From an uncultured Candidatus Peribacteria bacterium (GTDB lineage Bacteria > Patescibacteriota > Gracilibacteria > BD1-5 > UBA2023): a stretch of 64,000 nt of DNA. The position numbers and the translations under genes were made by a program. The notes under the pieces were generated by a model that worked only from the letters and a program-made list of their open reading frames with translations, ran no database searches and was not told the origin of the DNA. This document shows positions 10,005 to 44,000 of this stretch, piece after piece; within the stretch, counting starts at the first letter, position 1, and every line of letters begins with the position of its first letter. Where the stretch lies: positions 32,945 to 96,944 of the forward strand of contig CAZKLD010000004.1 of assembly GCA_964553745.1 (NCBI GenBank), in the 5' to 3' direction.

Positions 10005-11159
10005 ATGTATCCGTTAAAAACAAAATATCCGTATAATCCTGGAAATCTCGAAGCCACTTGAAATATATTCACGACGGTTTATCTATGAAATTATGTGCCT
10101 TGAAATTTTGACGAATGAGCCGGAAGTCATCTCTGAGTTGATATTATCCCTCAAATCAAGCACGATCCGATATTTGCCTGCATGAATTGAGTTGTCCAAT
10201 TCGCCTGAACTTCAGACTCAAATTGACACTACATCATCCTCAGGCACCCTAATGCTCCAGATCCTAATAATCTCGCTGCTTCTACAGTGCTTTATAGCTG
10301 CCATCTGCATTTATCTGAACTTTTAGCCAAGACGTGAGATCAGGTTAAAGAATGAGATATAATATGAAAATCGGGAAATACATGAAATTCGACATGAGAG
10401 CATCTGCATTTCCAGATAGATACATGAAATGCCCCATTCCACCCTTACTGGCCATTCACCCTGAAAGAAGCGAACGAAGCTTGATTAGGTTTTTTTGAAG
10501 CTGTAAATGCCGGATTGGGAATAGAAAATGCAAGAAAATATACGATAGACCCGCTAGTCTATCTGGATAAGATTTCAAATATTCAGCGTCCTATAATAAC
10601 GTCTGATCCTACTCCAAAAGCCGTTCCAGCCTTCTCGACAAAGAGCAGATATTTTACTGATGTGAGCGATAATGTCGAAGAAATCGATTACCTTGCTGAA
10701 AAATGAATAACAAAAGGTTACTGAGACAATACTTTCAGACCGAACTCAAACATCACAAGAGCCGAGTTGCTTGCCATGACATTCATCTTTGGCTGAATAA
10801 GGCCAGAATGAAGTATCTCTAAGTTCACGGATGTGGCTTCAACAGATTGGTTCTCACCTTATGTCACTGCCGCTGTGGCAAAATGATTCATAAGCTGATA
10901 TCCTGACAACACTTTTAAACCGAACAATGCAGTCACAAGAGCCGAAGCAATTGCTATAGTCTTGAATATAGCAGTAGGAAAAAACAAAATACCAAGTGCG
11001 GCAGATTCCTTATATCAAGATGTGAAGACATCCGATTGGTTCTGCAGATATGCCAACTATGTTTCTGAGAACTGACTTCTCGATTCAATAGGGAAATTCT
11101 ATCCTTCCGACAATCTGAAGAGATCGGATTTCGCCGTACTCCTGTATAACCTCAAATAA
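10005..11159 (+). CDS. M23 (LytM-type) metallopeptidase fused to three C-terminal SLH domains
   Basis: HxxxD (GSHLGVDI) and GKSGNTGNSTGEHLHFQI M23 motifs. Three SLH repeats follow: FTDVSDNVEEIDYLAEKGITKGYGDNTFRPNSNITRAELLAM, FTDVASTDWFSPYVTAAVAKGFISGYPDNTFKPNNAVTRAEAIAIVL, and YQDVKTSDWFCRYANYV. In-frame TAG at 9969-9971 closes the frame upstream. Confidence 0.9.
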
Positions 11160-11179
11160 TACTTGATAATAAGAAGAAT

Positions 11180-11220
11180 AATAGCCTTTTCTCTTGAGAA
11201 AAGGCTATTATTTGCTTTTT
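11180..11220 (+). terminator. rho-independent terminator
   Basis: AATAGCCTTTTCTC / GAGAAAAGGCTATT stem followed by TTGCTTTTT. Confidence 0.75.
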
Positions 11221-11261
11221 GGATATTTTTGAATAAGATACGCCCACTTAAAATTAGAATT

Positions 11262-12326
11262 ATGTCAAAAATCGCGATTCTACACCCTCATATCACAGTC
11301 AAATGATGAGCAGTGAAAACACTCTTAGAGATTGCAAATTATCTTAAGAGCATCTGAGATGATGTGACTTTCTATACTCTTGATCTCGATAGGAACAATT
11401 GTTTCCCGGAGATGACCAACGGTCTCAATATAAAAAATTTGAATGCAAGATGATACAGGAAGATATTCTGAATGATCAAGCTGGTTTTCCTCCTGAGGAA
11501 GACGGATATTGTGCTAGCCGGCAATTCCCCTATGCATTTCGTATGAGCACTGGCCAAAATTCTCCATCCTGGGATGAAAGTTGCATGGTTCCTGCAGAAT
11601 CTGCCAGTGTATTACATGGATCAGAATAAATGAATCTATACCTCCATAAAGAAATCGCTCGAGAAGATGATTATAAGGTTCCTTGATCTGATCTTGGTTA
11701 ATTCAAGCTTCATACAAAGCGAAGTGGCTAAGAATTTCGGCAAGAAAAGCGAAATCCTTTACCCCAGCATCGATGTGAATTTTTTCTCTAATGATCATCA
11801 GAGCCTGGAAGAGAATTATACCCTTTTCACTTATTCAAGACTAGTGAAATGAAAGAATGTGGAGCTTGCAATCAGGACATTCGCAGAACTTCAGAAGAGA
11901 TATCCTGGGCTTAAGCTGCTGATATGAGGAGATTGAGAAGAAAAGGAAAGATTGCAGGAAATCGCTCAATTCTTCCCAGATGTCCAGTTCTTATGAGAAA
12001 TCACACAAGAAGAAGCCAAGGCCCTCCTCCAGAGATGTACTGTTTTCCTTTTCACAAGCACGATCGACGCTTTCGGTTTGACCATATTGGAGGCAATGTC
12101 AATGGAAAAATCAATAGTATCGCTAGCTTGCGGATGAGCGATGGAACTAATCTGAAATTGAGAAAACTGATATCTTGCAAGAGATGAAGAGGAGTTCATA
12201 AAGTATGCTGATGAATTGCTCTCTGACCCGGAAAAACGTCAGAATATGTGAATAATATGAAGAAAATGGGCGATTGAACATTTTTCCCTGGAATCCATGT
12301 ATAATAGGATCGATGAGTTATTCTAA
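11262..12326 (+). CDS. GT4-family (GT-B) glycosyltransferase
   Basis: MSKIAILHPHITVKGGAVKTLLEIA..., ...YSRLVKGKNVELAI..., ...TVFLFTSTIDAFGLTILEAMSMEKSIVSLACGGAMELI.NGENGYL (EX7E-type C-terminal motif). Confidence 0.85.
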
Positions 12327-12424: not shown

Positions 12425-12451
12425 TTGACTTATATATATATTCACTATAAT
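12425..12451 (+). promoter_or_regulatory. candidate promoter of the S-layer gene (TTGACT ... TATAAT)
   Basis: TTGACT at 12425-12430 and TATAAT at 12446-12451. The spacer is only 15-16 nt. A direct repeat GTGAAGA x2 lies just upstream. Confidence 0.35.
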
Positions 12452-12850
12452 TTGGACGCACTGGGGGAGTGTATTTTCACTTCTTCTTAGCTCGTTAACA
12501 TATATTTTGAATTACACATTCTTGTGTATATTTGACGAGTTTTTTCCCTTCTTTTCTTTGTTTTAAATGACGAGAGGAGTGTTGCGGGTAAAGATTGGCC
12601 TCATAGAGGTCAATCTTCTACACAACCTCCTCTCGTTATGCCGACATAACGGAAGGTTAAAGCTTTGACCCTCCAAGATTTTATCTTTCTTGGAAGCGAT
12701 TTACAGGGATGGTCTCCCCGTAGATCAAAACCCAAAACAATGTTTGTTTTAAAGGCATAGCCTAAGCGCATTCATTGTTCGTTTTTTGGAATAGGAGCAA
12801 TCCTATCCTGCAAAAACAAAAATTTTTATTTCTTAACTTATAGTAATCCT
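12452..12850 (+). promoter_or_regulatory. long structured 5-prime leader of the S-layer gene
   Basis: A chain of stem-loops: ACGAGAGGAG 12570-12579 pairs with CTCCTCTCGT 12627-12636 and encloses AAGATTGGCCTC/GAGGTCAATCTT; CGTTATG/CATAACG at 12634-12651; further stems at 12651-12674, CCAAGA/TCTTGG at 12673-12693, 12698-12726, 12734-12750 and 12788-12808. No Shine-Dalgarno sequence precedes ATG 12851. Confidence 0.5.
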
Positions 12851-15800
12851 ATGAGTAATCTTTCTAAAAAAGTTACTTCTGCTATAAGTGTAGTTGCTAT
12901 AGTTGCATCTGCGGTTGGTTCTTCAATCGTTGCTGCTGCTTCTGGTTTCCTACCTTATGCTGAAGCTTTGGCTACTGCCGGTTATATTCAATCTTCATCT
13001 AATGAAGCTGGATACAGACTAGCAGATACTGCATCAAGACAAGAAGTTGCTGGTACAGCAATCAAAATGAAACTTGGTACAGGTTCTACTGCACTTCCTG
13101 CAAATTATTCTTGTAAAGGATACTTTACTGATGTTTCTGCTACTACTCCAGCTAGCTGGTCATGTAGAGCTGCTGAATTAGCAGCTGACAACGGTATCGT
13201 TTCTCAAGCAAACGCTAAATTCCGCCCTACTGATAATATTACTAGAGCTGAAGCTCTTGCAATGGTATTGAAGGCTGCTGGAATGGAAATTCCTACTGTT
13301 ACTACTTCATCATTCAATGATGTTACTATTGCTTGGCAAGTTAATGTAGCTGAAGCTGCACTTGCTAAGAAAATCATTTCTGCTAACGCAAGTTTCAGAC
13401 CAAATGATTCTGTATCAAGAGGTGAACTATTTGTATTTGCTGCTAACGCTTTAGGTCTTAGTGTTGATGATTTCAACCTTGATGACATACTAAACGGTGG
13501 TGACACTTCAACTGGTACTACTTCAACTGGTACTACTTCAACTGGTACTACTACTGAAGTTAAAGCTGGTGATCTTAACATATCTCTAAATCCTGCTTCT
13601 CCTGCTGTTGGAACTCAAGTTCCTATGTCTGGAATAATCAGATTTGCAGTTGTTGATTTCAAGGCCGCTTCTTCTGATGTAACTCTTAGTTCAGTTGAAC
13701 TTAAGAAAGCTGGTCTTTCTACAGTTTCTTCTTCTACTAAGGTATGGTTCGAAAAGAATGGTCTAAGACTATCTGGTAAAGCTTCTTTCACTTCTGAAGG
13801 TAACGCTATCGTTTCTTTCGCTCCATCTATAGTTATTAAAGCTGGTGCAACTGAATCTCTAGACCTTTACGTTCAATTGGCTGATAGTGTTGCTGGTACT
13901 GACTACCAATTCGTATCTGGAAACATCCTAAGCTCTGCTCAGAATGTTGCTGGTGCGTTCATGACTCCTGTTCTAAGGACTGCTAACTATACAGTTGCAA
14001 CATTCAATGCTGCTGCTGCTTCTTCTGGTGCAGATTACAAAGCTTCAAACGATGTTATCGAACTTGGTGCTTTCAAAATCTCTGCAACTAAGACTGGTTC
14101 AGTTACTGAAACAAGAGACGAAAAATTCCAATCAGTTACTCTATACCAATCTGGTACAGCTAACTTAACAAATCTTTCTAATATCGTTCTAGTAAGAAAC
14201 GGACAAGTTATCTCTTCTGGTGCAACTGTTGCTGGAAAAGCTCTTACTTTCGTTGTTAACGATATCATCAAAGACGGTGCTACTGCTACTTACTACATTA
14301 AAGCTAACATCAACAATGTAGAAAATCAAACTGATAGCTACCAATTCTACCTTAAGAATACATCTGATATCAGTGTAATCGAAGCTAATTCTGGTTTCCG
14401 CGCTAACGCTGATGCTACTACTGAGACTTCTAGATTCGTTGCTTCTCTTTACACTGTAAACGGAGGTGATGTTAAATTTGATAGAGACCCTTCTGTTGCT
14501 CTTTCTGCTAATTACGCTCCTGGAACTGATAATGTTGTTCTTATGCAAGGTACAATCACTGCTAAGAATGCTGTTACTCTTGAAGATCCAAGCCTAACTA
14601 TCAGCAACCTAACAGGTACTGGTAATCTTTCTAACTACTTCAATACTCTTTACCTAACTGTTGGTAATTCAGTATTCTCTGCAACTGCTGCTGGTACTGG
14701 TGGTGCTTCTATTGTTTTCAATGGAACTACTACTATATCTGGTACTGCTCAAGTTAAACTTTACGGTACACTAAAGAGCACTACTAATATGCCTGATGCT
14801 ACAATCAAATTCGGTGACTTGACTCTTGCTTCATTTACTGGAACAAATCAATACACTGCTAATCAAAACAATGTTACTTCTGCTGTAGGTTCTATTCCTG
14901 GTATCAGCGTTTCTGTTGCTAACACTTCTCTTAACGTTACTCGTAACGATGGGCTTGGTGATACTTCACTTGCTGCTGGTTCTAAATCAGTTGTACTTTA
15001 CGGAGTTCAACTTTCTTCTACAAGAGGTAATCCTGTTAACGTAACTTCTGCTAGCTTCCAATTTACTGGATCTGGTACTACTGCAACTGGTTTTGTAAAT
15101 AACGCTTACGCTACTCTATACGTAGATGGTGTTGCTGTTTCTTCTAAGACTGTTGATTCTACTAATTCAATCAAATTTGATGGAATCAGTGCTACTGTTA
15201 ATCCTTCTAAAGCTGTTAATCTAGTTGTTAAGGCTGATTTCTCTGATAACTTCCAAGGTGGAACTATCAGGACTGCTATGACTGCTATAGCTGCTGTTGA
15301 TTCTATCAGCTCTAAGGATATCGTTGTTTCTACTTTCCCAGCTGGTGCTATATTTACTGTTCAGGCTGCTAGCGCTACATTCGCTGCTTCTGACGCTAAT
15401 CCACAAGCTAGCCTATTCTTGGCAGGAAGTACTAACAATAAACTATACGCTGTTAAAGTAACTGCTGCTAACGATAATGTTAATCTAAAGACTGTTGCCC
15501 TAACAGGTACTGGTCTTGGAGCTTTCGCTAACTTCAAACTTTACGATGCTGCTGGTGCTCTAGTTGCTAACTCTTCTTCTGAAAGCGCAACTGCTGTAAC
15601 TTTTGATAACATTGACGCAACTAAATCTACTGTTGCTCAAGATAAATCAGTAAGTTACGTAGTTTCTGCTGATGCTAACACTAATACTGATGCTACTGGA
15701 ATCCAATTGGTTCTTGGAAGTGCAGTAATCCGTGGAAGCAATGGTCTAGAGATCAACGCAACTACTACTTCTATCGCTTCTAACCTTCACGCTGTTGCTC

Positions 15801-16231
15801 AAAACACTGCTGTGATCGCTAAGGCTACTAACCCAAGTAAGGAACTTACAACTAGCGCTCTAAGATTCTCTGTTGCTGCTTCTGGTAAGAACTCTGTTAC
15901 TATCTCTTCACTAAGTCTTTCTTCACTTCTTTCAGGTTACACTGGATCAACTGTAGTAAGCGTGTATAAGGATAGCATAAGCGCTTCTAACCTTGCATTT
16001 ACAGGTACACTTGGATCTGCACAAACTCTACTTCCTACTGCAAACGCTAAAAACACTGTAGATGCTGGATCAACTGCTACATATATCGTAGCTATTGAAG
16101 GCACTATCATTGATGCTACTGCTCAACAAAGTTCTTGGACTATATCTTTGAATGATGTTGTATTCGGTACTGCAATCTCTGCTAAGAACTACTACAATGT
16201 TGGACAATTCCCAATTACTGAAGTTAAATAA
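12851..16231 (+). CDS. S-layer-like surface protein: signal peptide, SLH anchoring domains, T/S/G linker, repeated beta-rich domains (1126 aa)
   Basis: The only long standard-code ORF in the window. The N-terminal signal peptide is KKVTSAISVVAIVASAVGSSIVAAASG. SLH repeats include FTDVSATTPASWSCRAAELAADNGIVSQANAKFRPTDNITRAEALAMVL and FNDVTIAWQVNVAEAALAKKIISANASFRPNDSVSRGELFVF. About 900 aa rich in A/T/S/V/N with no Cys follow. It is flanked by a structured leader and a strong terminator. Confidence 0.9.
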   Translation: MSNLSKKVTSAISVVAIVASAVGSSIVAAASGFLPYAEALATAGYIQSSSNEAGYRLADTASRQEVAGTAIKMKLGTGSTALPANYSCKGYFTDVSATTPASWSCRAAELAADNGIVSQANAKFRPTDNITRAEALAMVLKAAGMEIPTVTTSSFNDVTIAWQVNVAEAALAKKIISANASFRPNDSVSRGELFVFAANALGLSVDDFNLDDILNGGDTSTGTTSTGTTSTGTTTEVKAGDLNISLNPASPAVGTQVPMSGIIRFAVVDFKAASSDVTLSSVELKKAGLSTVSSSTKVWFEKNGLRLSGKASFTSEGNAIVSFAPSIVIKAGATESLDLYVQLADSVAGTDYQFVSGNILSSAQNVAGAFMTPVLRTANYTVATFNAAAASSGADYKASNDVIELGAFKISATKTGSVTETRDEKFQSVTLYQSGTANLTNLSNIVLVRNGQVISSGATVAGKALTFVVNDIIKDGATATYYIKANINNVENQTDSYQFYLKNTSDISVIEANSGFRANADATTETSRFVASLYTVNGGDVKFDRDPSVALSANYAPGTDNVVLMQGTITAKNAVTLEDPSLTISNLTGTGNLSNYFNTLYLTVGNSVFSATAAGTGGASIVFNGTTTISGTAQVKLYGTLKSTTNMPDATIKFGDLTLASFTGTNQYTANQNNVTSAVGSIPGISVSVANTSLNVTRNDGLGDTSLAAGSKSVVLYGVQLSSTRGNPVNVTSASFQFTGSGTTATGFVNNAYATLYVDGVAVSSKTVDSTNSIKFDGISATVNPSKAVNLVVKADFSDNFQGGTIRTAMTAIAAVDSISSKDIVVSTFPAGAIFTVQAASATFAASDANPQASLFLAGSTNNKLYAVKVTAANDNVNLKTVALTGTGLGAFANFKLYDAAGALVANSSSESATAVTFDNIDATKSTVAQDKSVSYVVSADANTNTDATGIQLVLGSAVIRGSNGLEINATTTSIASNLHAVAQNTAVIAKATNPSKELTTSALRFSVAASGKNSVTISSLSLSSLLSGYTGSTVVSVYKDSISASNLAFTGTLGSAQTLLPTANAKNTVDAGSTATYIVAIEGTIIDATAQQSSWTISLNDVVFGTAISAKNYYNVGQFPITEVK
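13505..13549 (+). repeat. 3 x 15-bp perfect tandem repeat (ACTTCAACTGGTACT) encoding (TSTGT)3 linker
   Basis: Read directly at 13505-13519, 13520-13534 and 13535-13549, between the SLH region and the body of the protein. Confidence 0.9.
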
Positions 16232-16264: not shown

Positions 16265-16301
16265 AAAAAAAATCCTCCCGATTCATCGGGAGGATTTTTT
16301 T
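16265..16301. terminator. strong rho-independent terminator, A-tract/T-tract flanked (bidirectional shape)
   Basis: AAAAAAAA-ATCCTCCCGA-TTCA-TCGGGAGGAT-TTTTTTT, 34 nt after the S-layer stop. Confidence 0.85.
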
Positions 16302-16514
16302 GTGTAAAGATTGCAAAGATTGTGTGGAAGTATTGAGAAGCTTCTTGATATTTTCCGATTGTAGCTATAGTTGCTATTGCTGATACATGAAAATCAATAC
16401 AAACAAGAATTGCTGGTGAGGCATCAGCCTGACGGAAATGTGCTCATGCTGAATCAGGGTAAGGCAAATATTGCCTAGTAAACAAATTTATTTTAGAAAG
16501 GTGCGAATATAGAA

Positions 16515-16548
16515 AAGAGCCTAGGACCTCAGGTCCTAGGCTCTTTTT
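16515..16548 (+). terminator. rho-independent terminator closing a short orphan transcription unit
   Basis: AAGAGCCTAGGACC-TCA-GGTCCTAGGCTCTT followed by TTTTG. Confidence 0.75.
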
Positions 16549-19511: not shown

Positions 19512-20729
19512 ATGAAAATAGACCAGTCTCTAGCCGAATTGATAATGGATGTGCATGAAATGACGCCTATTGAGGGCATAAACCGGTGCATGTGAAGCGA
19601 TTATTCCTCTGAAAAGAATCTGAAATTCGTTGCGAATGCTGTCCAGGCAAAGATAAGGGACCTTATCCTGACAAAGACTATATACGATAGGTATCCTCGA
19701 GACAGCATAAGAATGATGCTAGAGAATAAGCTGAAAGTGAGCGTGAATCTCTGAAATTTCTGCCTGCATGAATGCTGGCATTGTGCTATAGATTGAGATA
19801 GGAAATGAACAGCATTAGGAATCAGTTCCTTCAGACTGCTAATAGAAAAATATTCAAGAGAACTTAAGTATGTGAATTCATTCTTTTTCACAGGGTGAGA
19901 ACTCCTGGACAGAAAGGACTTTCCTGAAATTATCGAAGAAGTTCTCAAAAGATGAATAAGCCGCATAAAGTTCGTTTCCCGCTCTTGACTGGCTTTCCAG
20001 CCAAGGAATGTAAGGGCGATCGTGGCTCTTAAAGAAAAATATCCTGATTTCGAACTCGATTTGACTCTATCGATGGATAATTATTCAGACACCAACAACC
20101 AGAAAGCCAATAAATATCTCGACAGGCTGACGGAGCTTGTTTCAATGCAATTCGAGACATTCAAGAAAGACAAGATCGACCTGATCTCGACAATCCCTTT
20201 CGATGATGCTGAGGAAGCGGATAAACAATTCAAAATGATAATAAGGAAGATAAACAGGCTCTGAAACAGGGTTGTGAAAGCCTGATTTGTCTTTAAAGGG
20301 CATGAGCTCGTTGATTGATATGATAATTTCAAATTTGAGAAAGATTGAAGGAAATTCGAGATTTCTGCAGTCTATCAGATGCTGGTATGACGATCTGATA
20401 AGTCCAAAGATATCAAATGATCATGAAAACTGTTGAGCCGCGAAGATGCTTGCAAATATCTCTATTTTTCAGAGAACTCGACTTTTTATGCAGACGAAGC
20501 AATGAATTTGAACTACTGCTCCCATATCGCTCATTGATTCGAGGGCGGGAATTGAATCATAAACCTTATGGACAGCCCCAAATCAAAGGTCATAATGATG
20601 TTTCTTCACACTCGTCAGAGATTCTACAGGCTCTTGACTTATGATGAGATTGTAGATTATGTCCTCAATCCAGAAAATAAGCATCTGTGTTCAAAATTGA
20701 GGCAAGAATTATCAATAATCAAGAAATAA
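19512..20729 (+). CDS. radical SAM domain protein (405 aa), unassigned subfamily
   Basis: The frame was checked codon by codon. Canonical cluster motif VNLGNFCLHECWHCA (CX3CX2C, 19761-19784), followed by FFFTGGELL. Confidence 0.8.
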
Positions 20730-21982
20730 TGAAGACCGACAACGCTCATATACCATCATCTCTGAAATTCATGATGGAAGTTCCGGAATGAAAGAGGTAT
20801 ATTGAAGAGAATTTCAGGTTCTGATCTGACATCGGATTTATAAATTGAATATCTTGAGAGGATTTGGTCTGAAAGCTGGAAATGGAAAAAAGCCCGAGAT
20901 TGCTCGATCTGGTTTCTAAGAATTTTCTGATCAAGAAAATCCTGGAAAGCCCTGATCTCGACCACCTGCTCCTTGCGTTATCCCAGAAATTCAAAATAGT
21001 AAATCTGTTCATTAGTACCTGAAACAAATGCAAGCATGACTGTAAGGATTATTGTGTGCTAAAATGAAATCCCAATTGACAAAGCATTGATTTCAGCAAA
21101 TATGTCGCATTCCTTGATAAATATTCTTCACTCCTTGAAAATATAGGATCGCTCCACCTCGTATGACAGGAATTTCTGCTTATGGACAGATTTGAGGATT
21201 ATCTCGAAGAAGCCTTGAAAAGAGGAATCACCACTTTCTGAATCGTAACCCGCTGAGCCTGAAGCGAAGAAAACAATGACTCAGCCCTTGCAAAAATAGC
21301 CCAACTGAAAAAAATTCATCCGCAATTCAAAATGTATCTGACGACATCATTGGACAGATATTCGACACTGAATGCCAAAGACCACAATGCGATGATCAAA
21401 AACCTCTACAAGATAATAAAGATGCATCTGTATCTCTTCTGAGAGAAGTCTATCCGCATCCAATCCACCGGTTCGGTATCAAGGGATAATTGATTCCCTG
21501 AAATAAGGCATTCTGATATGGAAGATATAACAGATGACATGAATGCGATACTCTCTCTTCTGGAAAATGATTGAATAATGCATGCTGACACCGAAATCAA
21601 ACCAGGCATGACCGTCATTACAATGAATGACGGCAAGATTATAGAGCTGACTCTAAATAGGCGAAAGAATGTATATGATGAACCGAGGCTGAATGACGTT
21701 GCAATGAGCAGGGATGAATCATGAGGCACGAAATGCGAGATGATCGACAATCCTTTCCATATATACCTAGATAAGGATTTCAATCTCCTCACCTGCATGT
21801 GATTCCACGATATGTATTACAGGAAAAAATGAACCCTTACGAATGTGCTGTCAACTTCAAATGAAGATGTGCTGAGGGTGCTCATGGAAACTAGAAAAAG
21901 GGCTTTCAATTCCCTTTCCTATGTAGAGCTTGCCGAATACTTCCGAAATCCGAAAGATATCTATATCTGCGATAAGATTTAA
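20729..21982 (+). CDS. radical SAM-like paralogue (417 aa) with variant CX3CX3C motif
   Basis: The ATG overlaps the upstream stop (TAATG). The frame was checked codon by codon. The motif is VNLFISTGNKCKHDCKDYCV (21029-21055). It is colinear with the upstream gene: LKEKYPDFELDLTLSMDNYS vs LKKIHPQFKMYLTTSLDRYS, and C-terminal YDEIVDYVLNPENKHLC vs YVELAEYFRNPKDIYIC. Confidence 0.75.
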
Positions 21983-34857: not shown

Positions 34858-37800
34858 ATGGCTGAGATAAGAAATGAGATCCTAGACCTTTCTACTGATA
34901 ATGGTCTGAAAAAGCTTAATACTATCTTCGATTTTGCAAAAGCAAAACTCCAGAAGGTCGAATCGAAAATATGAGATTTTTTGAGATCCCATGGCTTCGA
35001 TAAGCATTTATCAAAGAACTATGACGGGAAATTGGACAAGTCTTCGGACACACAATCTGAGATAATCTTCAATAAGCAGATTCTCCCGCTTCTTAATGAT
35101 TTCAAAAGAAACAGACATGTTTTATCAAAGAAAGAATTAATAATCAAGTTATCCTGAATCATAGAGCAGGCCGAGCTTCAAGAGAAATTCTCACTTAGCC
35201 AATCGCAAGGCAAGGACATGTCCGCAATGCATACGGAAAGCAGAAAACAGATAGAGAATGAACTTCTGAAATGAATAGACAATGAATTCCATGCAAAGAA
35301 GCTTGATGTTGTTACTGATCAGAATTTCGAGAAATCAAAAGAGGCTGAACTGAAGTGAATGCTTCTTGCATTGAGCGCATGAACATTATCGTCGGCTCAA
35401 TTTGAAAGCAGATATTTCGCAATCATAAAAGAAACGTGAAAAATAGGCTGAATGCCGATGCAAGCTAGGTTGCTTGAGAGATTCTGAAGCATTGCAAAGC
35501 CGATGATGTCAAGCTGAGCAGCTCCACTGCTCCTTATGATTTCCAAAAAAACAAGGAAAATACTCCCATGATTGCCGCTTCTTATATGAGGCTGAATATA
35601 TGCCAGCCTTTTCTTTACCCTCAGATCAAAAGACATATCCGCATGAACCAAGGCTACAGAAGTGAGCAAGACTGTCTGAGAGACTATTCTGAATATCGCA
35701 CCGATAACAGGAACGATAATGTCCGCTAAGGATACAATACATGCTTTCCGCAGATGAGATAAGGCAGACGCTATTGCATGCTGAATCGGTACTCTGGTGA
35801 GCTGAGTTTTCGATTGATTTACCATAGTGTTGGTTGCCAGCTGAGTGGGTATCCCATGAGCCGTAGCTCTGAGTTCTGTCAAGAATGCGGTCATAAGATG
35901 AGTTGTTAAGCTCTGAGTCAAGCCATTGTCTAAAATTGTGGCAAAAGAAGCCGCGGAGAAGATTGCCGCGGAGGCTGCATCCCAGACTTGAAGACAGATA
36001 ATAAAGGAAATATGAAAATCCTCGACTGAATTCCTTGTCCAGAATTCCAAAGTCGCATGGAAATGAATGAGGCATAATACAAGAAAGATGATACTCTGAA
36101 AAAAAGAATGATGAGAATTGGTCAGCAGATGATTGGTTCATGAAACCATGGACTGAGTGAAACAGATATTCACTTTCAAACACGCGAGAGACTTGGTTAT
36201 GGGAAAGTACCATATGCGCCAGTATAAGAAAAATCCTGAAGCCCTGAAGAGTAAGAATTTCAAGAAATATAAGGAAATGGAGGAGCTGGCAAAAGAGAAA
36301 GATGCCTCTATCAGATCTCGATCGATTACCGAATCCAAAATCGCAGAGCATAATATGTCACAGAATAAAGAGCTTGAAGACTGAGTCTTGAAGCTCAATG
36401 AAAATGATTCCGAGAGTTCAGTCTCTGGTATGGTGCATGATGCTAGATATGATTCTGATATGAATAAGGATTTGAATTCGCATCTTAATGCAGAATTTAG
36501 ATCAGAAACCGATAATTTAGCTAAGGAACTCGATGCGAAGAGACACGAAAGGAAGCTTAAATTTGAATCGTACATAGCGGCAATTGAGTCAGAATGCACA
36601 GTAAAATGAACCGAGAACATAATCTCAAAACTTGATTTTGAGATAAATGGGCTTATTAAAGATTGAGTTGAAATACAAAATCTAGAATCAAGCTTCAAAC
36701 GAGCATGAGATTGGTTTAGGTGAACATTGGATAAGATTGCAAGATGAGAAAAGCTAAATAAGTGATACAGGGATCCGGAATATTATGCAAACAATCTGTA
36801 CAAGTTAAAAAGCTGATTGGAATTGAGTAGGAAATTGAAAGCTGACAGATTCGAAAAAGTTGAGAAGCTACTGGATTCTCTAGAAAGGAGATCCTACAAT
36901 AATGAGACTACCGACCACCAAAAATTCTTCTATTCAAAAGTAGAAGAAATCATAAAGAACAGACAGCTCTGAGCCGATGTGAAGAAGCTCATCCTTGAGC
37001 ATCTGACCCCGCAGCACATAAACGAATCGCTTGTGAAGAATAATGTCCTGCCCAAACTCATACAGGAAATATTGTCTAGCAATATTAGCATTACCGAAAA
37101 AGTTGATTTCCTCACATTCCTGAAAACAGAGAAAAATGTGAATAATATCTGACGAGGACAAACTCTCTATAAATTTGCTCAAGACGAGCTCAATGTCATA
37201 ATTAAAGAAATAAAAGGATTCGGTTCAGAATGAGCTTCAGATGCGGGCATATTATCTTTTCAGGAAAATTTCCGTGAATATGACAAGCTTATAAGATGAT
37301 TCGATCATGATCTGAAGATGGACTTGTCAGCTATCACTGGGGCGGTAACTGCACACTTCGGCAAGATGGAAGCTTCAGCAAAAGTTAGAACCATAGGCTT
37401 CCTGAAGAGGCAAAATATGCTTAATTATCATCTTGAGGACAAAACATTCTCTGATCAGGTTCTTGAACTTATAGTGAAGTGAATGAATGACAAGACCGAC
37501 ACAAGAAGTATCCGCTGAGCCTTGAATATGTGATCTTACCTAGAATGAACGAAGTTCAGCGAAGTCTGACAACTCTATAGCAGGACTCTTCTGAATAAGA
37601 ATGCATGAAAAGGGTTGGAATCCGAATGATTATGGTCCACGCGTGATTTTAAATCAATGATAAGAGAATCAGTCGATGATCCGAGAATATTGGCGCTTAA
37701 ACATAGGAATGAAAATGAATGAAATGAAAAATTATTCCAAAAAAATACCGATATCATGTGACCGAATTCAGGCATTAAATTATTGGAAAGCATAACAAAA

Positions 37801-40800
37801 GAGGTATTGAAATGAGATACCAGAAGCATCCTAGGCTACTTATATGAAATATCAAAAGAACCTAAGACTACATTTACGATGAGCGCGCATAATGCTGTCC
37901 TAAAGGAATTTTTCCAAGAAATCAAGAACGGAAAAAGATCTGAAGAAGTTGTTAAATTCACAAAGGAAATTTGCGTATATATAAAGGATCAGAATGAGAA
38001 AATGACGCTTCCGTTTAAAGAAATGCAAGAATGCATCTTGGAATGTCTCAAAGCAAGCAGAAAGATATCAATGGATGAAAAAGTGGCTTTCACTAAGATT
38101 CTTGAGCTCATGCCTTTAAGTGAAAAGACGTATTTATCCTTAGGTTCAACAGAAAGGGCTATATTGGCAAAAAGGATGATGGAATTAATTCCAAATGAGG
38201 GTATGGAAAAGAATCAGACTGCCATAAATATACTGGATAATCTGATGACATGAAAAATAGACGATCCTGTTGATATGATGTATAAAATAGCATGATTGAA
38301 TTATCTTCAGAGGAACAAACATGAATACGGTAAGAGATTCCAGAGCATCTTGAGCAAGAGAAAAATTTGAGAAGGCTGAGAGACTATACGCGAAATGGCA
38401 GAGAGATTGATGGAAAACAAAAGATCTCTTTTGCAAGAACTTTTCGCATTAAATCAAAATCAGATTGGTACAGGCTGAAAAGAAAAGACTCTCCTTTGAT
38501 TAGATTTGGAGATTACGAAAGATTGAGAATTCTTCCTGACTCAGAATTGATGATGAAACAGGATTGAAATCGACGTGTGATCAAAGCTCAATGCAAGCTA
38601 TGATTATATAGAATTGGCCTTGACAAAATCACCAATCATAAACTCATGAGAAAAGGAGAACATCCTTATCATATCTAAAATCCTAGAAAAATATTGAAAT
38701 ACTTGATTGCTGGAAAAATTCGAACACGCATGAAGCCATGTCAATCTCTCGAATATTTCAGAAGTGCTGAATAATTCTAAGAATCTAGAAAATATGCCAC
38801 AAGAGCTTATAATAAAATTTTTGAGGGAATTTGAGGCGAAACCTTGAGATGTGGAGCTATGAGATAGATTTGTCTCTCAGATGGTAATAATCAGGAAGTT
38901 CCTTAAAGAAAAAGGAAAAGAGGAGCATTATTGAAGAACAATCGAATACATAGAGGACCTGATGTCAAGAAAGGAAGTTCATCTGCTTGATCACCAATTA
39001 TCACTAATCGCGAATCTCTGAGTCAATAAGACGGTTCAAAAGAAAGCATATAAGGAATTCCTCAATAATAGAGTAAATACTGCAGAGGAACTAGAAGGGC
39101 TATTGACACATCCGTTATTCAAGAGGATACAGGATGATGCATGAGTTGATTTCAAGTACTCAAACCATAATATAGCAGAAATAATCTTGAAGGTCTTGAG
39201 TGCCGAAAAAATAAGCGCGGAGCAATTCAATAGATTATTCATCCTTGCTGAACTCATAAAGAATAAATCAGTTTTCTATGTTGAAACAGATTGAAGCAAG
39301 GACACTATAAAAGTGCTTAAAGAGGCTTTCTTCAAAATAGCCGATCATAAAGATCCGATGAGCCAATCCATGATTGATAAGCTGTTCGAAATCAAAGAAC
39401 TCTTAAAGGATAGAGATGTTCTTAATTACTTTGAGGCAAGGCTTAAAAATGCTCCTAGCTGATCTCTCGAAGCGACAACTCTCATGAACAGATTTTTTGA
39501 CTGAATATATAAGCATTATAAAGCTTCCTCAGAGATTGGCTTTAATGTCCATGATAAGGCCGTATTCGATAGGATTCAAAAGGCTGTGACCAAACATCTG
39601 TTGTCATTGAATATAAAATGAGGCAAGATGACATGAGAAGAATTTGAAAAGAGACTAGATTTGAAGACTAAGGAACTCCTGTATGGGAACAAAATCGAGA
39701 TAGCATGAATCGAAAACTGAAAAGTGATTTATAGGGATTCCAAGACTTGAGAAAAGCTAGAAAACCTAGAGAGCATCCAACTTTTAAGAACTGAAAAAAT
39801 CATTAAAGGCATAGAAAAACATCTTGTCATTGCCGTTCGTGCTGCAATGAATGAGAATTCCGAAGGGAAAGGCTGATCGGATTTGAATGCTGATATTCTG
39901 AAAAAACTGTCTCCGAACGTCATTGATGAACTGAATAACCTGAAAATTGAAGTCAAGGCAGATATCAAGCTTATTGAGATTGCAGAATTCCAGAGTAAAT
40001 TTATAAGAGCCTCATCTGACACTGAGAAATACAGAATCTTGAATGAATATAAAGAAAGGCTTTGAGACCATGGAGTGGAAATAAGGGCAGCCAATAAATG
40101 ATGAAGGATAAGCCTTCAGTATCTGGATTCAGATGGTGGGGCAATTGATATGACAAGGCTCGTTGGGCTTGTTGATAAGGCTACATGAAAAAATATTGAG
40201 TCCACTTCATTAGCGGGGAATATGAATATTATCGATTCCATATTGAGTTGATCTAAGGCTTGATTGTGATGGTTGAGATGAATCGTATGATGATCAAAAG
40301 AGTTATTAGACGAAAATCTTGCGTGAAAAGAAAAAATATGACATAATGTAAGCAGGCTTGCCTTCAATGAAGTGATGAGCACCAAGAAAGCAAAAATAAT
40401 CATACCTTTAGCAATAACTTTTTGACTAATGACAGCCAAACAAGCACAGGCGATGAACCAATCCGTTCTGGATGATGCAGAAATTGCAGCCCAGGATGCA
40501 CTTAAAGTGAATGCCGAATATCAGAAAGCCGTCAAGGAGGGCAATCTAGGGCTTAAGAAAGAGATTGAAGAAGAGACCATCCGCAAGATGACAATCCTCA
40601 AGGCCCAATCATTGTTCAATGACATGCAGATGCAGGTTGATAGGAAAATTGATGAGATTGTGGATAAGTCTCTTGCTAAAACTAATGATATCATAGTGAC
40701 ACCATTACAGAAGGATAAGATTAGAGAATTATTCAAAGAGGAAATGTACAAATATATGATTGAGAACAATGATACTGGAACTAGATTTGAATCACCTTAT

Positions 40801-40992
40801 GAGAATTCAAAAAAATCCTGACTTCCAGCTGAGAAGATAATATCAAATGCATTAAAATGAAATGAGTTGCTTGAGAATGAAATCAGAGATATCTTGAATA
40901 ATATAAACAGCAGAATTAGTACTCCTATTGATAATGAATGAATCAGAAGATTAAAATTCATTATATGGTCAGAATTTAATTCCTTAAAATAA
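34858..40992 (+). CDS. giant hypothetical protein, 2044 aa, with a glycine-zipper/hydrophobic module near the N-terminus
   Basis: Read line by line in frame 1: no TAA/TAG for 2044 codons in AT-rich DNA, from ATG 34858 to TAA 40990-40992. It joins track ORFs 36157, 36388, 37879, 39883 and 40429. Mostly K/E/N/L-rich helical sequence, with hydrophobic G/A/V/I stretches about 165-330 aa in and one near the C-terminus (KIIIPLAITFGLM). Confidence 0.8.
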
Positions 40993-41044
40993 TCGATACT
41001 ATCATAACAATGTGGTACGAATTTAATAAAATTAAATAAAAAAT

Positions 41045-44000
41045 ATGTTGCAACAAGAGCATATATCTCCCGAATCAGGAAGTGAGAAACTCATTAAAGA
41101 ACTTACTTTTGAGAAACTGAAAGATAGGATTATTAAGTCAAAAGATCATACTGAATTCTCCAAACACATAGATAATCTTAATGATATCCCAGAAGCAAAA
41201 GATAAACTGAAAAATATAATTAAGGATTATCTATCAAAGCTAGAATCATTTGATATAGACAATAAAGTATCAGTTACCTTGGTGCAGATATTGGCTAAGA
41301 CTTTCTGATTGCAGGTTTATGTAGATGGCCTGTATGGAAAGCAGACTCAGACAGCTATCGCAGATATCATGCAGCTCAATAAAGGTTTGGTTCCGCCCAT
41401 CATCAATTTGCCGATTATAAATGAGAAGAGACTTGCCAATTATAGGAAATGAAAAGATGAGGAAGAAGCTGTAATGAAATTAAGAAGTGAATTTGCAGAA
41501 TTCTCAAAAGATCCAAAAAAAATAGAATTATTTGAAAAAGAACTTAGGAGTTACAAAGTAGATATACAATCAGCACAGATTAAGCTAAAATGATCAGCTG
41601 CTGATATCGGTAAACCAGAATCAAGAGAGGCAACTGAAGCTCCAGAATCAATTGAATCAAGGATTGACAAGGCTGTAAAAAGAGTATTCAGATTATCAGC
41701 TGTAGAGGCCACATATAATAAGATAGAAAATAAGATATATCTCAGTGAGAATGAAAACCCAAAATATCCTGTAATCATTGATATATGAGCATTATGACTT
41801 GATGCTAGTAGCTCAAAATTCTCTCAAGAGCTTGAATTAAAATTGAAATTGCATCAGAATTCACTTGATGATTTTAAGATGCCCGAATGGGCAATCGAGA
41901 AGAGGTGAGATAGGTTCTCAGCAGCAGAAAGGATTGAAAAATGGGAAAAACAAATCCCGCTTGATATTGATACTCTAACAAAAATCCAGAAACTTAAAAA
42001 TATTATCATAAAAATCAATGAGCTTAAGGTGGAATCAAAATACAAGATTAATCTTATTGATAAATATATGTATGAATGATGAGATACAACTGGGCGAGTC
42101 CTGGAGGCTATCGCCTTAATAGAATTCAAAAATAATATCTTAGCTTCTTATCCACCTAAACAAAGGGACCTTATTAATAATAGAATCCTTGATCCTATTT
42201 TAAATGATTTCACAACCTTTATAACTAATAAGCAGCAGTTTATTGATGCAATTTTTATGATATCCTGATGAGATATAAGCAAAAAGGAACTTGATTTAAA
42301 TCATATTAATAATATTTCATATTTATTTGATATCAATGAGTCTTTATGCTGAAAAATTAGAGATCATTTTTTAGTAGATGAAAATAAAAAATGGAAATTA
42401 TCAGAAAGGCTGAATAATCTTCAATTTATCAAAGAATATTCTAAATTTGATTACAACTCGGTCAATCCCAATAAAGATCCAAAGTTATCGAAATTTTTAG
42501 CCGAAATTAAAGATTGACTAGATAAGTGTATTATAAAAGCGGATTTAGTAGAAGCAAAATTGATTTTTACAGACATCAAAAATGGCAAGTTAATAAGTTT
42601 GATAAATGATATCGATGATTCAAAACTTAAATCTATGGTTTTAAAACAGATTTGAACCTGATTGGCATGATGAAAATTTTCATATGATCATCTAAATGCT
42701 ATGATAAAAGAATCAAAAGAAATTAAACAATATTTAGATGAATCTGATTTTAAGAATATTGATAAAAATAAATCTAAAAGAATCTTGCCAAATATACTTT
42801 GTTGATTAATTGATGCACGGAAATTAGAGTCTTTTAAGCAGCTTGACTTAAGAATTACGAGTATTTTAAATTGATGAGTATCATATCCAAACATTGATTA
42901 TATAAAAGAAGAAATAGATAATATTTTTTGAGAAATTATAGATTGACGAATAGATATAGATAAGGTTTTAAATAATATTGAGACAGTTGCAAAATTTAGA
43001 GATTATAATCAGAATAAGGAAATTTATAGGTTTTTAATCAATGATTTATTTAAAAATGGCAATTTTAAAGTTTATGAAACTGAGATAAATGCAATGCAAA
43101 GAAATATAAAATCTCTTAAGGAAGATAAATCTTTAACTGTCATTTCACCCGAAAAGAAATATGAATTATTGCTTGGTTCATCCATGGGATTAGTTCAAAA
43201 AGAATGATTTGATAATATTGTTGCTAGCTTGCATGACTTGCAGAAACAATTTGATACTTGAAAAATTACAATAGAAGATGCAAAAGTTATTGTTGAATCC
43301 CTTATCTCCAACAATGATTCTATTACATGAGACGTGCAATGAGAGCTGACTTATGAATGCCCAAATCTTCCGGAGAAAAAACAGAAGGCTTTCGATGAGT
43401 CACTTAAAAATCTTAAAGATGCAAAAAAGAAATTAGAGGATCTGTCTAATAAAGATGCGAGTGATTTGACTAATGAGGACAAGGAAGATATAAGTTTCTT
43501 GAAGGATGTGATTAAGAAAATTCTTCTTGTATTTACCAAGGTATGAGCTAGAGAAATTTTTATAAAAGACAAAAAACTGTCTACACAAGATTATGAATTC
43601 ATAGCCAATGACTTCCTAGACAAAAACAGCCAGAAATATAAGATTCCAAGAGAGGCATTTGCAAATAAGGAAATCAGAGAAGAATATGAGAAGGCGATCA
43701 AGATATCTTTGTTGTCTTGAGAAATCAAAGAGAAGGATGTGAAATATATATTTTGAGAGCTTCTTAATATCAATAAAGGCACATTCAAAAAGTTCATGAC
43801 ATTGTCGACAGAAGATAAGCAAACATTGTTCCAGAATGTCATTACTGGCACATTGAGCAATCATACAAACGGCGACATGATGGGAAAGAAAAATCCTGGA
43901 CATTCATCGACACTTGAGTCAAAAGTGAATTTTATTCTGGATAATTATAATAATCTTGATAAATTCAATAATTTTCCGGAATGAGTCAATATAATAAGAT

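What the first reader, a model, noticed from the sequence alone, without database searches (positions are those of the whole stretch)
12851..16231. The S-layer-like gene completely avoids the reassigned TGA codon
This 1126-codon gene contains many glycines but has zero in-frame TGA, which is why it is the only long ORF in the standard-code track. Neighbouring genes use TGA for a large share of their glycines: roughly 6 percent of all codons in uvrA, and about 10 percent in part of the giant gene. The gene also has a distinct, strongly biased codon choice (GGT/GCT/ACT/TCT-rich).

There are two readings. One is selection against the reassigned codon in a very highly expressed gene, implying that UGA-Gly decoding is slow or error-prone. 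The other is recent acquisition from a standard-code donor. Either would be informative about how code 25 is tolerated.
Basis: partly seen in the sequence, partly recalled or inferred. Interest (0 to 1): 0.65.

Follow-up and report, generated by a model that had tools for sequence, protein, structure and literature searches.

The report
TGA-free S-layer gene in code-25 bacterium
In a bacterium that reads the stop codon TGA as glycine and uses it for two-thirds of its glycines, the native, probably very abundant surface-layer protein gene contains no TGA, because selection on codon choice acts most strongly on this gene and not because it was imported from another organism.

Summary
ORF 12851..16231 (1126 codons, SLH-anchored surface protein) has 85 GGN and no TGA. 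The other 43 genes of at least 150 aa use TGA for 68% of glycines (binomial p about 1e-37).

Recent import from a standard-code donor is refuted. All named homologues are Gracilibacteria or 'gcode 4' bins. The gene lies in a conserved block (uvrA, rluB, M23-SLH peptidase, GT1, S-layer) behind a conserved promoter and structured leader. In 12 high-TGA genomes its orthologues use TGA for 3% of glycines against 67% in flanking genes. Recently arisen glycine sites avoid TGA too.

The selection reading is supported, with caveats. The gene's whole codon usage is an amplified version of the ribosomal-protein bias (r = 0.84). Ribosomal proteins themselves only drop to 50% TGA against 66% in neighbours, and a DnaK gene is at bulk level. 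TGA is not avoided at conserved glycine sites, so nothing indicates that UGA decoding is error-prone. Bulk TGA share follows genome GC (rho = -0.82), which points to mutation pressure.

This is a clean bacterial example of a pattern already reported in eukaryotes with reassigned stop codons. I found no earlier report for code 25.

The parts
12425..12451 (+). Promoter TTGACT-15 nt-TATAAT, 399 nt upstream of the start codon
   Evidence: Read directly. The same hexamers and spacing lie 340-450 nt upstream of the orthologue in 15 of 20 loci, across GC 0.24-0.57. The consensus scanner missed it because it only accepts spacers of 16-18 nt.
12452..12850 (+). Long conserved 5' leader. Proposed distal helix ACGAGAGGAG (12570-12579) with CTCCTCTCGT (12627-12636), hairpin GTTATG..CATAAC (12635-12650), invariant palindrome GGTTAAAGCTTTGACC (12655-12670), and a variable downstream hairpin.
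   Evidence: Alignment of 15 leaders. The palindrome occurs once in each of 46 loci, always upstream of the S-layer-family gene. The small hairpin folds in all 45 distinct sequences with different stem sequences. RNAalifold recovers only the invariant hairpin. No Rfam family matches. The table-25 ORF 12487..12819(-) lies inside this leader and is probably spurious.
12851..16231 (+). S-layer-family gene: 1126 codons, 0 TGA, 85 GGN, extreme codon bias
   Evidence: More than 120 homologues, all in Gracilibacteria or 'gcode 4' bins. No sequence relative in the PDB.
12851..12943 (+). Predicted Sec signal peptide (MSNLSKKVTSAISVVAIVASAVGSSIVAAA|SGF)
   Evidence: Direct reading of the translation: basic N-region, hydrophobic core, AAA-S motif. 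The N-terminus is conserved in orthologues (consensus). No predictor was run.
12968..13465 (+). SLH (S-layer homology) cell-wall anchoring domains, about residues 40-205
   Evidence: Pfam PF00395, E = 3.6e-12, two stretches, best at residues 92-135. A further SLH-like repeat is seen by eye at residues 155-205.
16266..16302 (+). Intrinsic terminator: 16-bp hairpin followed by a T-run. A second hairpin lies at 16511-16547.
   Evidence: RNAfold gives dG -23.2 and -28.6 kcal/mol. Sequence.
10005..11159 (+). Internal control and syntenic neighbour: secreted M23 peptidase with SLH domains that uses TGA at the bulk rate (22 of 32 Gly)
   Evidence: Pfam Peptidase_M23 8.7e-20 and SLH 2.3e-38. Counts. 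Orthologue directly upstream of the GT1 and S-layer genes in L006.
11163..12326 (+). GT1-family glycosyltransferase, conserved immediately upstream of the S-layer gene (TGA 17 of 25 Gly)
   Evidence: Pfam Glycos_transf_1 5e-34. Homologues upstream of the S-layer gene in L006, L010, L011, L012 and L018.

Best explanation
The gene is a native, vertically inherited Gracilibacteria surface-layer protein: signal peptide, N-terminal SLH wall anchor, and a long Ala/Thr/Ser/Gly/Val-rich body. It is transcribed from a conserved near-consensus promoter through a conserved structured leader of about 400 nt, and ends at a strong terminator.

It is probably the most heavily synthesised protein of the cell, so selection on synonymous codons is stronger here than anywhere else in the genome. 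That selection drives every amino acid to one or two preferred codons (GGT > GGA, GCT, ACT, GTT, TCT, TAC, AAC, ATC) and removes everything else, including TGA.

In ordinary genes TGA is the majority glycine codon because AT-biased mutation pressure favours it over GGN and selection there is too weak to resist. TGA carries a small translational cost, most plausibly speed or supply of the dedicated tRNA-Gly(UCA). That cost lowers TGA only modestly in ribosomal-protein genes and almost completely in the S-layer gene.

Shown: nativeness, conservation of the depletion, ongoing selection, shared direction of bias with ribosomal proteins, and the link between GC and TGA share. Inferred: that the S-layer protein is the most abundant product, and that the cost is kinetic rather than a fidelity cost.
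For: - Nativeness. Homologues from 99% to about 30% identity are all from Gracilibacteria or 'gcode 4' bins. 242 tblastn-confirmed places in GTDB genomes carry almost only Gracilibacteria, Absconditabacteria or Patescibacteria titles. The block uvrA-rluB-M23/SLH-GT1-S-layer-ABC2 is collinear with L006, and the downstream genes are collinear with L001. The promoter, leader and palindrome are conserved.
- Conserved depletion. Examples: L011 0/74 against flanks 0.83, L010 1/78 against 0.72, L012 1/79 against 0.77, L006 9/86 against 0.83. Pooled over 12 orthologues: 31/983 (3%) against 67% in flanks.
- Ongoing selection. At Gly sites shared by 30% or fewer of the orthologues, TGA is used 21 of 315 times, and 0 of 28 in the window.
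- General translational selection. The S-layer codon shifts correlate with ribosomal-protein shifts over 55 non-Gly codons (r = 0.84, slope 1.59). C-ending codons are preferred in two-fold Y boxes and T-ending in four-fold boxes, which is opposite to a simple T-enrichment artefact.
- Gradient. Bulk about 0.66, ribosomal proteins 0.50 (699/1387, six genomes), S-layer 0.03. The S1 fragment in the closest relative has 1 of 16.
- Mutation pressure. Spearman correlation of GC with bulk TGA share is -0.82, p = 7e-19, n = 74 loci.
- Expression. A metaproteome of groundwater Gracilibacteria lists an SLH-domain protein at 106 counts, against 8 or fewer for S1, PheT, EF-G and S14 of the same MAG (PMC11452946 Table S8).
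- Not an effect of location. The SLH-anchored M23 peptidase (22/32) and the pilins (0.76-0.84) in the same window use TGA normally.
Against: - TGA is more depleted in S-layer genes than the general gradient predicts: log shift -3.04 observed against -0.83 predicted, residual -2.3 SD.
- At equal non-Gly bias scores, ribosomal-protein genes carry 30-79% TGA and S-layer genes 0-10%. A TGA-specific or gene-specific extra factor is therefore not excluded.
- DnaK in L070 uses TGA at the bulk rate, 34 of 45.
- One ribosomal operon, L086, shows no depletion at all: 0.55 against 0.56.
- Among non-ribosomal genes there is no gradient: rho = -0.02, and rho = -0.11 within the window.
- Expression of this particular gene was not measured. 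The proteomic evidence comes from another MAG and from a protein identified only as 'SLH domain'.
- Ribosomal proteins of the window's own genome could not be obtained.
Confidence: 0.72

Rival explanations
1. A TGA-specific, gene-specific cost acts on top of ordinary translational selection. Occasional misreading, drop-off or frameshifting at UGA would be especially harmful in this protein, which is 1126 residues long, anchored at its N-terminus and assembles into a lattice. A truncated or mis-incorporated monomer would still bind the wall through its SLH domains and would poison the lattice. The penalty per UGA would then be far larger here than in small ribosomal proteins.
For: - TGA depletion exceeds the general trend: residual -2.3 SD, and a roughly 10-fold lower TGA share than ribosomal proteins of equal bias score.
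- The SLH anchor is N-terminal, so truncated products would keep their anchoring function (inference).
- Hanke et al. found 3 peptides unique to a UGA-Trp database against 97 unique to UGA-Gly (PMC4032931).
- Shulgina and Eddy note possible ambiguity between UGA-Gly and UGG-Trp through U34 wobble (PMC8629427).
Against: - TGA is not avoided at conserved Gly sites in ordinary genes (MH OR 1.57, enriched, p = 4e-5) or in ribosomal proteins (OR 1.20, p = 0.26).
- Residual TGAs in orthologues show no 5'/3' positional trend.
- Several ordinary codons (ACG, TCG, CCG, TTG) show the same pattern of being tolerated in ribosomal proteins and purged from S-layer genes, so TGA is not unique.
- RF2 is absent from these genomes (10.1101/595074), which removes the obvious route to termination at UGA.
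Confidence: 0.2
2. The gene was recently acquired from an organism that uses the standard code and has not yet accumulated TGA.
For: The gene is fully readable under table 11. Its codon usage differs sharply from its neighbours.
Against: - No homologue outside code-25 CPR lineages was named among 120 listed hits, and there is no PDB relative.
- GC of the region (0.39) matches its surroundings.
- Gene order is conserved with L006 and L001.
- The promoter and leader are conserved across 15-46 genomes.
- TGA depletion is present in orthologues down to 30% identity.
- The direction of codon bias equals that of the clade's own ribosomal proteins.
- Lineage-specific Gly sites also avoid TGA.
Confidence: 0.02
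3. The gene is kept free of TGA for regulatory reasons. The envelope protein could then be made independently of tRNA-Gly(UCA), for example when that tRNA is scarce, uncharged or under attack. This would resemble recoded phages that keep early genes free of the reassigned codon.
For: The avoidance is close to all-or-none and gene-specific. An elaborate conserved leader suggests dedicated post-transcriptional control. Another envelope gene, the lipoprotein L082:18929-20068, is also TGA-free at 0 of 18 in a genome with a 0.57 bulk share.
Against: No evidence exists for conditional tRNA-Gly(UCA) availability. Other envelope proteins in the window use TGA normally: M23-SLH peptidase, pilins, SecY in relatives. 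Depletion is graded among lineages (L016 0.28, L067 0.41) rather than absolute. The rest of the codon bias is explained by ordinary selection.
Confidence: 0.05

Closest known systems
Depletion of reassigned stop codons in highly expressed genes of eukaryotes with altered nuclear codes (Blastocrithidia, PMC12153298; Oligohymenophorea ciliate PL0344, PMC10553269)
   Same: A former stop codon now read as an amino acid is used widely but is under-represented in highly expressed genes such as cytosolic ribosomal proteins. The authors interpret this as a translational burden.
   Different: Here the organism is a bacterium using code 25. The reassigned codon is the majority codon for its amino acid (about 67%). 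Ribosomal proteins are only mildly depleted. Near-total avoidance is confined to one gene family and is conserved across a whole clade.
Classical translational selection on synonymous codons in highly expressed bacterial genes, including S-layer genes with strong promoters, long stabilising 5' leaders and high codon bias (general knowledge)
   Same: The direction of bias is shared with ribosomal proteins (r = 0.84). C-ending codons are preferred in two-fold pyrimidine boxes and U-ending in four-fold boxes. The gene has a near-consensus promoter, a long leader and a strong terminator.
   Different: The codon removed is a reassigned stop codon with its own dedicated tRNA. It is removed more thoroughly than the ribosomal-protein gradient predicts.
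UGA-to-Trp reassignment in Mycoplasmatales and insect endosymbionts (code 4)
   Same: AT mutation pressure and loss of RF2 accompany the capture of UGA. The reassigned codon becomes common in bulk genes (background). Bulk UGA share tracks GC here too.
   Different: In code 4 a single tRNA-Trp(UCA) can read both UGA and UGG. In code 25, UGA has a dedicated tRNA-Gly(UCA) that competes with three or four GGN codons, so selection has real alternatives to choose from. I did not test expression-dependent UGA use in code 4.
Recoded-codon-free early genes in stop-codon-recoded phages (general knowledge; not tested here)
   Same: A subset of genes in a recoded genome is kept readable under the standard code.
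   Different: There the pattern serves a temporal code switch in a mobile element. Here the gene is chromosomal and syntenic, and the pattern is explained by codon selection. There is no phage context.

Membership tests
SLH-anchored bacterial S-layer protein | One to three N-terminal SLH domains | tested here: met
   Pfam PF00395, E = 3.6e-12, two stretches
SLH-anchored bacterial S-layer protein | Secretion signal | tested here: met
   Direct reading of residues 1-31: KK n-region, hydrophobic core, AAA|S. Conserved in orthologues. No predictor was run.
SLH-anchored bacterial S-layer protein | Self-assembles into a two-dimensional lattice covering the cell | not testable with these tools
   No sequence relative in the PDB. 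No structure prediction was attempted.
SLH-anchored bacterial S-layer protein | Among the most abundant cellular proteins | tested here: inconclusive
   An SLH-domain protein has 106 counts against 8 or fewer for other proteins of one Gracilibacteria MAG, but only 1 count in another MAG. Orthology to this family is not established (PMC11452946 Table S8).
Gene under translational selection for codon usage | Bias in the same direction as ribosomal-protein genes of the same clade | tested here: met
   r = 0.84, slope 1.59 over 55 non-Gly codons. Same-genome comparison in JAQUEK01.
Gene under translational selection for codon usage | Bias not explained by local base composition or strand mutation bias | tested here: met
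   GC is 0.39, as in the neighbours. C is preferred over T in Tyr, Asn, Ile and Phe, while T is preferred in four-fold boxes.
Gene under translational selection for codon usage | Measured high expression of this gene | not testable with these tools
   No transcriptome or proteome exists for the window's organism. The exact protein is not on record.
Reassigned-codon depletion in highly expressed genes (as in Blastocrithidia and ciliates) | Reassigned codon less frequent in ribosomal-protein genes than in bulk genes | tested here: met
   0.50 (699/1387) against about 0.66 in six low-GC genomes. The per-genome range is 0.44-0.67 against 0.56-0.80. One genome shows no difference.
Reassigned-codon depletion in highly expressed genes (as in Blastocrithidia and ciliates) | Continuous decline of the reassigned codon with an expression proxy across all genes | tested here: inconclusive
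   rho = -0.25 over all genes, but -0.02 once ribosomal proteins are excluded. rho = -0.11 within the window.
Recent horizontal acquisition from a standard-code donor | Closest homologues lie outside the recipient clade | tested here: not met
   All named hits are Gracilibacteria or 'gcode 4'. GTDB loci carry almost only code-25 CPR titles.
Recent horizontal acquisition from a standard-code donor | Patchy presence, or a different genomic context, in relatives | tested here: not met
   Synteny is conserved. The promoter and leader are conserved in 15-46 loci.
Recent horizontal acquisition from a standard-code donor | Compositional features decay towards the host's (amelioration) in older orthologues | tested here: not met
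   Orthologues at 30-58% identity are as TGA-poor as the window gene. Lineage-specific Gly sites avoid TGA.

The most novel reading that the evidence does not exclude
UGA-Gly decoding carries a cost that general codon-bias theory does not capture, and that cost becomes decisive only for a long, N-terminally anchored, lattice-forming protein. Rare mis-decoding or drop-off at UGA would yield anchored but assembly-defective monomers that poison the S-layer. The family would therefore be held nearly UGA-free across Gracilibacteria even though ribosomal proteins tolerate about 50% UGA. If true, the S-layer gene would serve as a natural reporter of the residual imperfection of the code-25 reassignment.
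Probability: 0.18. Interest if true: 0.6.

Novelty: new member of a known kind. Interest (0 to 1): 0.42.

Why it matters
- It separates the two forces that act on a reassigned codon in code-25 bacteria. Mutation pressure makes UGA the commonest glycine codon. Selection still treats it as slightly inferior, visibly so only in the most heavily translated gene. This is a direct, quantitative view of how well a captured stop codon has been integrated: well enough for ribosomal proteins, not well enough for the S-layer protein.
- It has a practical side. These S-layer genes are the only long genes of such genomes that standard-code gene callers recover intact. They are therefore over-represented in code-11 protein catalogues (one search found many full-length copies from standard-pipeline assemblies). 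They could serve as markers for mis-translated Gracilibacteria contigs.
- The rule 'ribosomal proteins at bulk frequency implies HGT' is unsafe in such genomes.

Tried and rejected
- An alignment of 38 diverse homologues was too divergent to seed the genome scan. A closer set of 18 worked.
- Pfam calls with DNA references failed because the tool translates with table 11. I passed code-25 translations as letters instead.
- No tRNA or Rfam family was found in the window. A tRNA scan of 60 loci found only one tRNA(UCA) and no other tRNA-Gly, so it says nothing about the Gly tRNA set.
- I tried to obtain ribosomal operons from the window's own genome. The window's exact protein is not on record. 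The two L2 proteins closest to the syntenic relative belong to other assemblies. They were used as replicates only.
- L083 (GC 0.56) has no TGA in any gene examined, so it is uninformative.
- RNAalifold on a MAFFT alignment of the leader core recovered only the invariant palindrome. My long-range helix scan was noisy: 9.7 bp against 7.6 bp in shuffles. I did not build a covariance model.
Extreme codon and amino-acid bias would make the gene look 'foreign' whatever its origin. Synteny, phylogenetic distribution and regulatory conservation answer the same question more cleanly.
- Secreted or SLH status as the cause was rejected using the M23-SLH peptidase and the pilins.
- Transcription-associated C-to-T bias as the cause was rejected because C-ending codons rise in two-fold boxes.
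- The missing Shine-Dalgarno sequence is not special to this gene. Only 1 of 44 window genes has one.


Full report
**1. The observation**

Under the standard bacterial code the window contains a single long ORF, 12851..16231 on the + strand (1126 aa). The next longest is 241 aa. When only TAA and TAG are treated as stops, the window resolves into about 50 closely packed genes that use TGA heavily, which is what a code-25 genome looks like.

The target gene has 85 glycine codons (GGT 58, GGA 25, GGC 1, GGG 1) and no TGA. The other 43 genes of at least 150 aa have 811 TGA and 386 GGN, or 68% TGA. The binomial probability of 0 of 85 at the locus-wide share is 1.1e-37.

- uvrA has 58 TGA in 948 codons.
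- The giant gene reaches 12 TGA per 100 codons locally.
- The gene's third codon positions are 57% T and 4% G. Nine codons that are common elsewhere (CTC, CTG, TCC, TCG, ACC, ACG, GTC, CCC, CCG) are absent.
- No other window gene of at least 150 aa is TGA-free.

**2. What the gene is**

Pfam finds SLH domains near the N-terminus. The translation begins with a typical signal peptide, and the rest is rich in Ala, Thr, Ser, Gly, Val and Asn with almost no Cys, His or Met. No PDB chain is related at the sequence level.

A search of 5.8 billion proteins returned more than 120 full-length relatives, from 99% down to about 30% identity. Every hit that carries a name is from Candidatus Gracilibacteria or from the 'uncultured bacterium (gcode 4)' ACD bins.

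A tblastn-confirmed scan of one genome per GTDB species found 242 places, of which 80 were kept. Almost all are in Gracilibacteria, Absconditabacteria or Patescibacteria MAGs. The search patterns contained essentially no glycine, so the sampling is not biased towards TGA-free copies.

**3. It is native, not imported**

- GC across the gene (0.39) matches its surroundings.
- The gene order uvrA, rluB, M23-SLH peptidase, GT1 glycosyltransferase, S-layer gene, ABC-2 permease is the same in the window and in L006 (JAQUEK01). The genes downstream of the S-layer gene are collinear with L001 at 66-96% identity.
- UvrA is 77% identical between the window and L006, while the S-layer protein is only 45%. 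The gene is fast-evolving but stays in place.
- Its expression signals are conserved. An identical TTGACT-15-TATAAT promoter lies 340-450 nt upstream of the start codon in 15 of 20 orthologues, across genomic GC from 0.24 to 0.57.
- The leader contains an invariant palindrome, GGTTAARGCTTTRACY, which occurs exactly once in each of 46 loci and always in front of the S-layer-family gene.
- A small hairpin next to the palindrome keeps its pairing with different stem sequences.
- A strong terminator follows the gene.

Recent acquisition from a standard-code donor is therefore excluded.

**4. The TGA avoidance is conserved and actively maintained**

TGA counts in orthologues, with the TGA share of Gly codons in flanking genes:

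| Locus | TGA / Gly codons in S-layer gene | Flank share |
|---|---|---|
| L011 | 0/74 | 0.83 |
| L010 | 1/78 | 0.72 |
| L012 | 1/79 | 0.77 |
| L006 | 9/86 | 0.83 |
| L018 | 5/76 | 0.79 |
| L019 | 0/82 | 0.50 |

Pooled over 12 orthologues from high-TGA genomes the share is 31/983 (3%), against 67% in their flanks. Two lineages are less extreme: L016 (Absconditabacteria) at 22/78 and L067 at 38/93.

Among 1154 ORFs, S-layer-family genes fill the top of the list of significantly TGA-depleted genes.

Glycine positions turn over quickly in this protein. At sites where 30% or fewer of the orthologues have Gly, TGA is used only 21 times in 315, and 0 of 28 in the window. The pattern is therefore not a relic from before the reassignment. 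It is being maintained now. The few residual TGAs show no positional trend.

**5. Is it general avoidance in highly expressed genes?**

I retrieved S10/spc ribosomal operons from six low-GC Gracilibacteria genomes. TGA share of Gly codons:

| Locus | Ribosomal proteins | Neighbouring genes |
|---|---|---|
| L081 | 0.67 | 0.75 |
| L082 | 0.47 | 0.57 |
| L084 | 0.44 | 0.68 |
| L085 | 0.45 | 0.71 |
| L086 | 0.55 | 0.56 |
| L087 | 0.44 | 0.66 |

Pooled, ribosomal proteins are at 699/1387 = 0.50 against about 0.66.

L081 lies on the same 164-kb contig as the L006 S-layer gene, which has 0.10. A ribosomal protein S1 fragment in the closest relative of the window has 1 of 16. A DnaK gene in a genome with 0.81 bulk share has 34 of 45.

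So there is a gradient from bulk to ribosomal proteins to the S-layer gene, but the middle step is small.

**6. Is TGA just another non-optimal codon?**

Within one genome, ribosomal proteins share the S-layer gene's preferences and already purge GTC (0.25 to 0.04), CTG (0.17 to 0.01) and AGG (0.42 to 0.10). They nevertheless keep TGA at 0.67.

Pooled over genomes, the log shift of each codon from bulk to S-layer correlates with its shift from bulk to ribosomal proteins (r = 0.84, slope 1.59, 55 non-Gly codons). For TGA the prediction is -0.83 and the observed value is -3.04, a residual of -2.3 SD. ACG (-3.2 SD), CTC, TCG, CCG and, less strongly, TTG behave similarly.

With weights derived only from ribosomal proteins, S-layer genes score 0.12-0.16 and ribosomal genes 0.08-0.13. 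At overlapping scores the ribosomal genes carry 30-79% TGA and the S-layer genes 0-10%.

The depletion is therefore mostly, though not entirely, accounted for by amplified general selection. Among frequent codons TGA is the one most disproportionately removed.

**7. Speed or accuracy?**

If UGA were error-prone, it should be avoided at conserved glycine sites. It is not.
- Across 48 orthologous families from high-TGA genomes, TGA is 0.69 at conserved Gly sites and 0.61 at variable ones (Mantel-Haenszel OR 1.57, p = 4e-5). That is enrichment, probably because new Gly codons arise more often as GGN.
- Within ribosomal proteins the values are 0.50 and 0.46 (OR 1.20, p = 0.26).

Hence there is no fidelity signature. 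A kinetic or tRNA-supply cost is the more economical reading, but it is an inference. Shulgina and Eddy point out that a U34 tRNA-Gly(UCA) could also read UGG (PMC8629427). That gives a reason why its level might be kept modest. I could not test this.

**8. Why TGA is common elsewhere**

Across 74 loci the bulk TGA share falls with GC (Spearman rho = -0.82, p = 7e-19), from about 0.8 at 25% GC to about 0.05 at 57% GC. This fits AT mutation pressure favouring TGA over GGN. The window's lineage has a high share (0.63-0.68) for its GC (0.37).

**9. Controls inside the window**

- The SLH-anchored M23 peptidase just upstream uses TGA for 22 of 32 glycines.
- Two pilin-like genes use it for 0.76-0.84.
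- The peroxiredoxin has 7 of 13.

Secretion, wall anchoring or envelope location is therefore not the cause. None of the other 43 genes approaches the target's overall bias: the score is +0.50 against -0.28 to -0.78.

**10. Expression evidence**

The gene has the hallmarks of a very strongly expressed unit, as described in section 3. Independent proteomics is thin but points the same way. In Table S8 of PMC11452946, an SLH-domain protein has 106 counts in one Gracilibacteria MAG whose S1, PheT, EF-G and S14 have 8, 7, 2 and 1. In another MAG an SLH protein has 1 count. Orthology to this family was not established.

**11. Comparison with what is known**

Depletion of reassigned stop codons in highly expressed genes has been reported for Blastocrithidia (PMC12153298) and for a ciliate (PMC10553269). 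Five full-text searches found no such report for code-25 bacteria. The closed-genome paper on a gracilibacterium mentions S-layer-domain proteins and the absence of prfB, but not this pattern. I therefore class this as a new member of a known kind. Its particular features are:
- The reassigned codon is the majority codon for its amino acid.
- Ribosomal proteins are barely affected.
- Near-total avoidance is limited to one conserved gene family.

**12. Verdict**

- Observation: confirmed.
- HGT reading: refuted.
- Selection reading: supported.
- The inference of slow or error-prone decoding: weakly supported for 'slow', not supported for 'error-prone'.

The main gaps are the lack of expression data for this organism and the lack of ribosomal genes from its own genome.

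Noticed in passing
window 12425-12850; also L002, L004-L009, L013, L017, L019, L022, L023, L027, L041 upstream of the S-layer gene: The S-layer gene has a conserved expression cassette: an identical TTGACT-15-TATAAT promoter 340-450 nt upstream, and a structured leader. The leader core is an invariant palindrome, GGTTAARGCTTTRACY, present once in each of 46 loci and always before the S-layer-family gene. It is flanked by a hairpin with compensatory changes. No Rfam family matches. This may be an undescribed cis-regulatory or stabilising leader.
   Followed up: partly
window 12487-12819 (-): This 110-aa ORF under table 25 lies entirely inside the conserved leader of the S-layer gene. It is probably not a gene.
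   Followed up: partly
L082:18929-20068 (CP042461, directly after secY): A 379-aa predicted lipoprotein (LLAAC lipobox, no Pfam hit) has 0 TGA among 18 Gly codons in a genome where neighbours use 57% TGA. This is a second TGA-free envelope gene, so the class may be wider than S-layer genes.
   Followed up: partly
L070:16167-17735: DnaK in a genome with about 0.8 bulk TGA share uses TGA for 34 of 45 glycines. Not every protein assumed to be abundant avoids TGA.
   Followed up: no
L083 (JAUPLX01, GC 0.56); L023-L025 (GC 0.57): The high-GC relatives have almost no TGA. L083 has 0 TGA in 18 ribosomal-protein genes and 4 neighbouring genes. L023-L025 have 4-7% of Gly as TGA. L083 may use the standard code, or TGA may be nearly extinct there.
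   Followed up: no
whole window (44 gene starts): Only 1 of 44 genes has a Shine-Dalgarno-like motif within 20 nt of its start. Upstream regions are A/T-rich instead. This genome seems to initiate translation largely without SD pairing.
   Followed up: partly
window 34858-44197: There are two very large genes (2044 and 1050 aa) with no annotation obtained. The second lies in a markedly AT-rich stretch (GC 0.28-0.29 at 41-44 kb). The window's first 4 kb are similarly AT-rich (GC 0.27-0.28).
   Followed up: no
window 19512-21982: Two adjacent genes of about 400-430 aa have homologues only in the closest relative L001 (66-67% identity). Their sequences contain Cys-rich motifs. They were not annotated.
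   Followed up: no
L014, L057 (record titles): Short contigs carrying Gracilibacteria-type S-layer genes sit in MAGs labelled Bdellovibrionales and Gammaproteobacteria. Many loci are labelled 'Peribacteria'. These are probably mis-binned or mislabelled code-25 contigs.
   Followed up: no
window, all genes: CGA and CGG are very rare (23 and 18 of about 18,000 codons) and absent from the S-layer gene. Shulgina and Eddy report CGA/CGG reassignment to Trp in Absconditabacteria and some Gracilibacteria. I did not test their meaning here.
   Followed up: no
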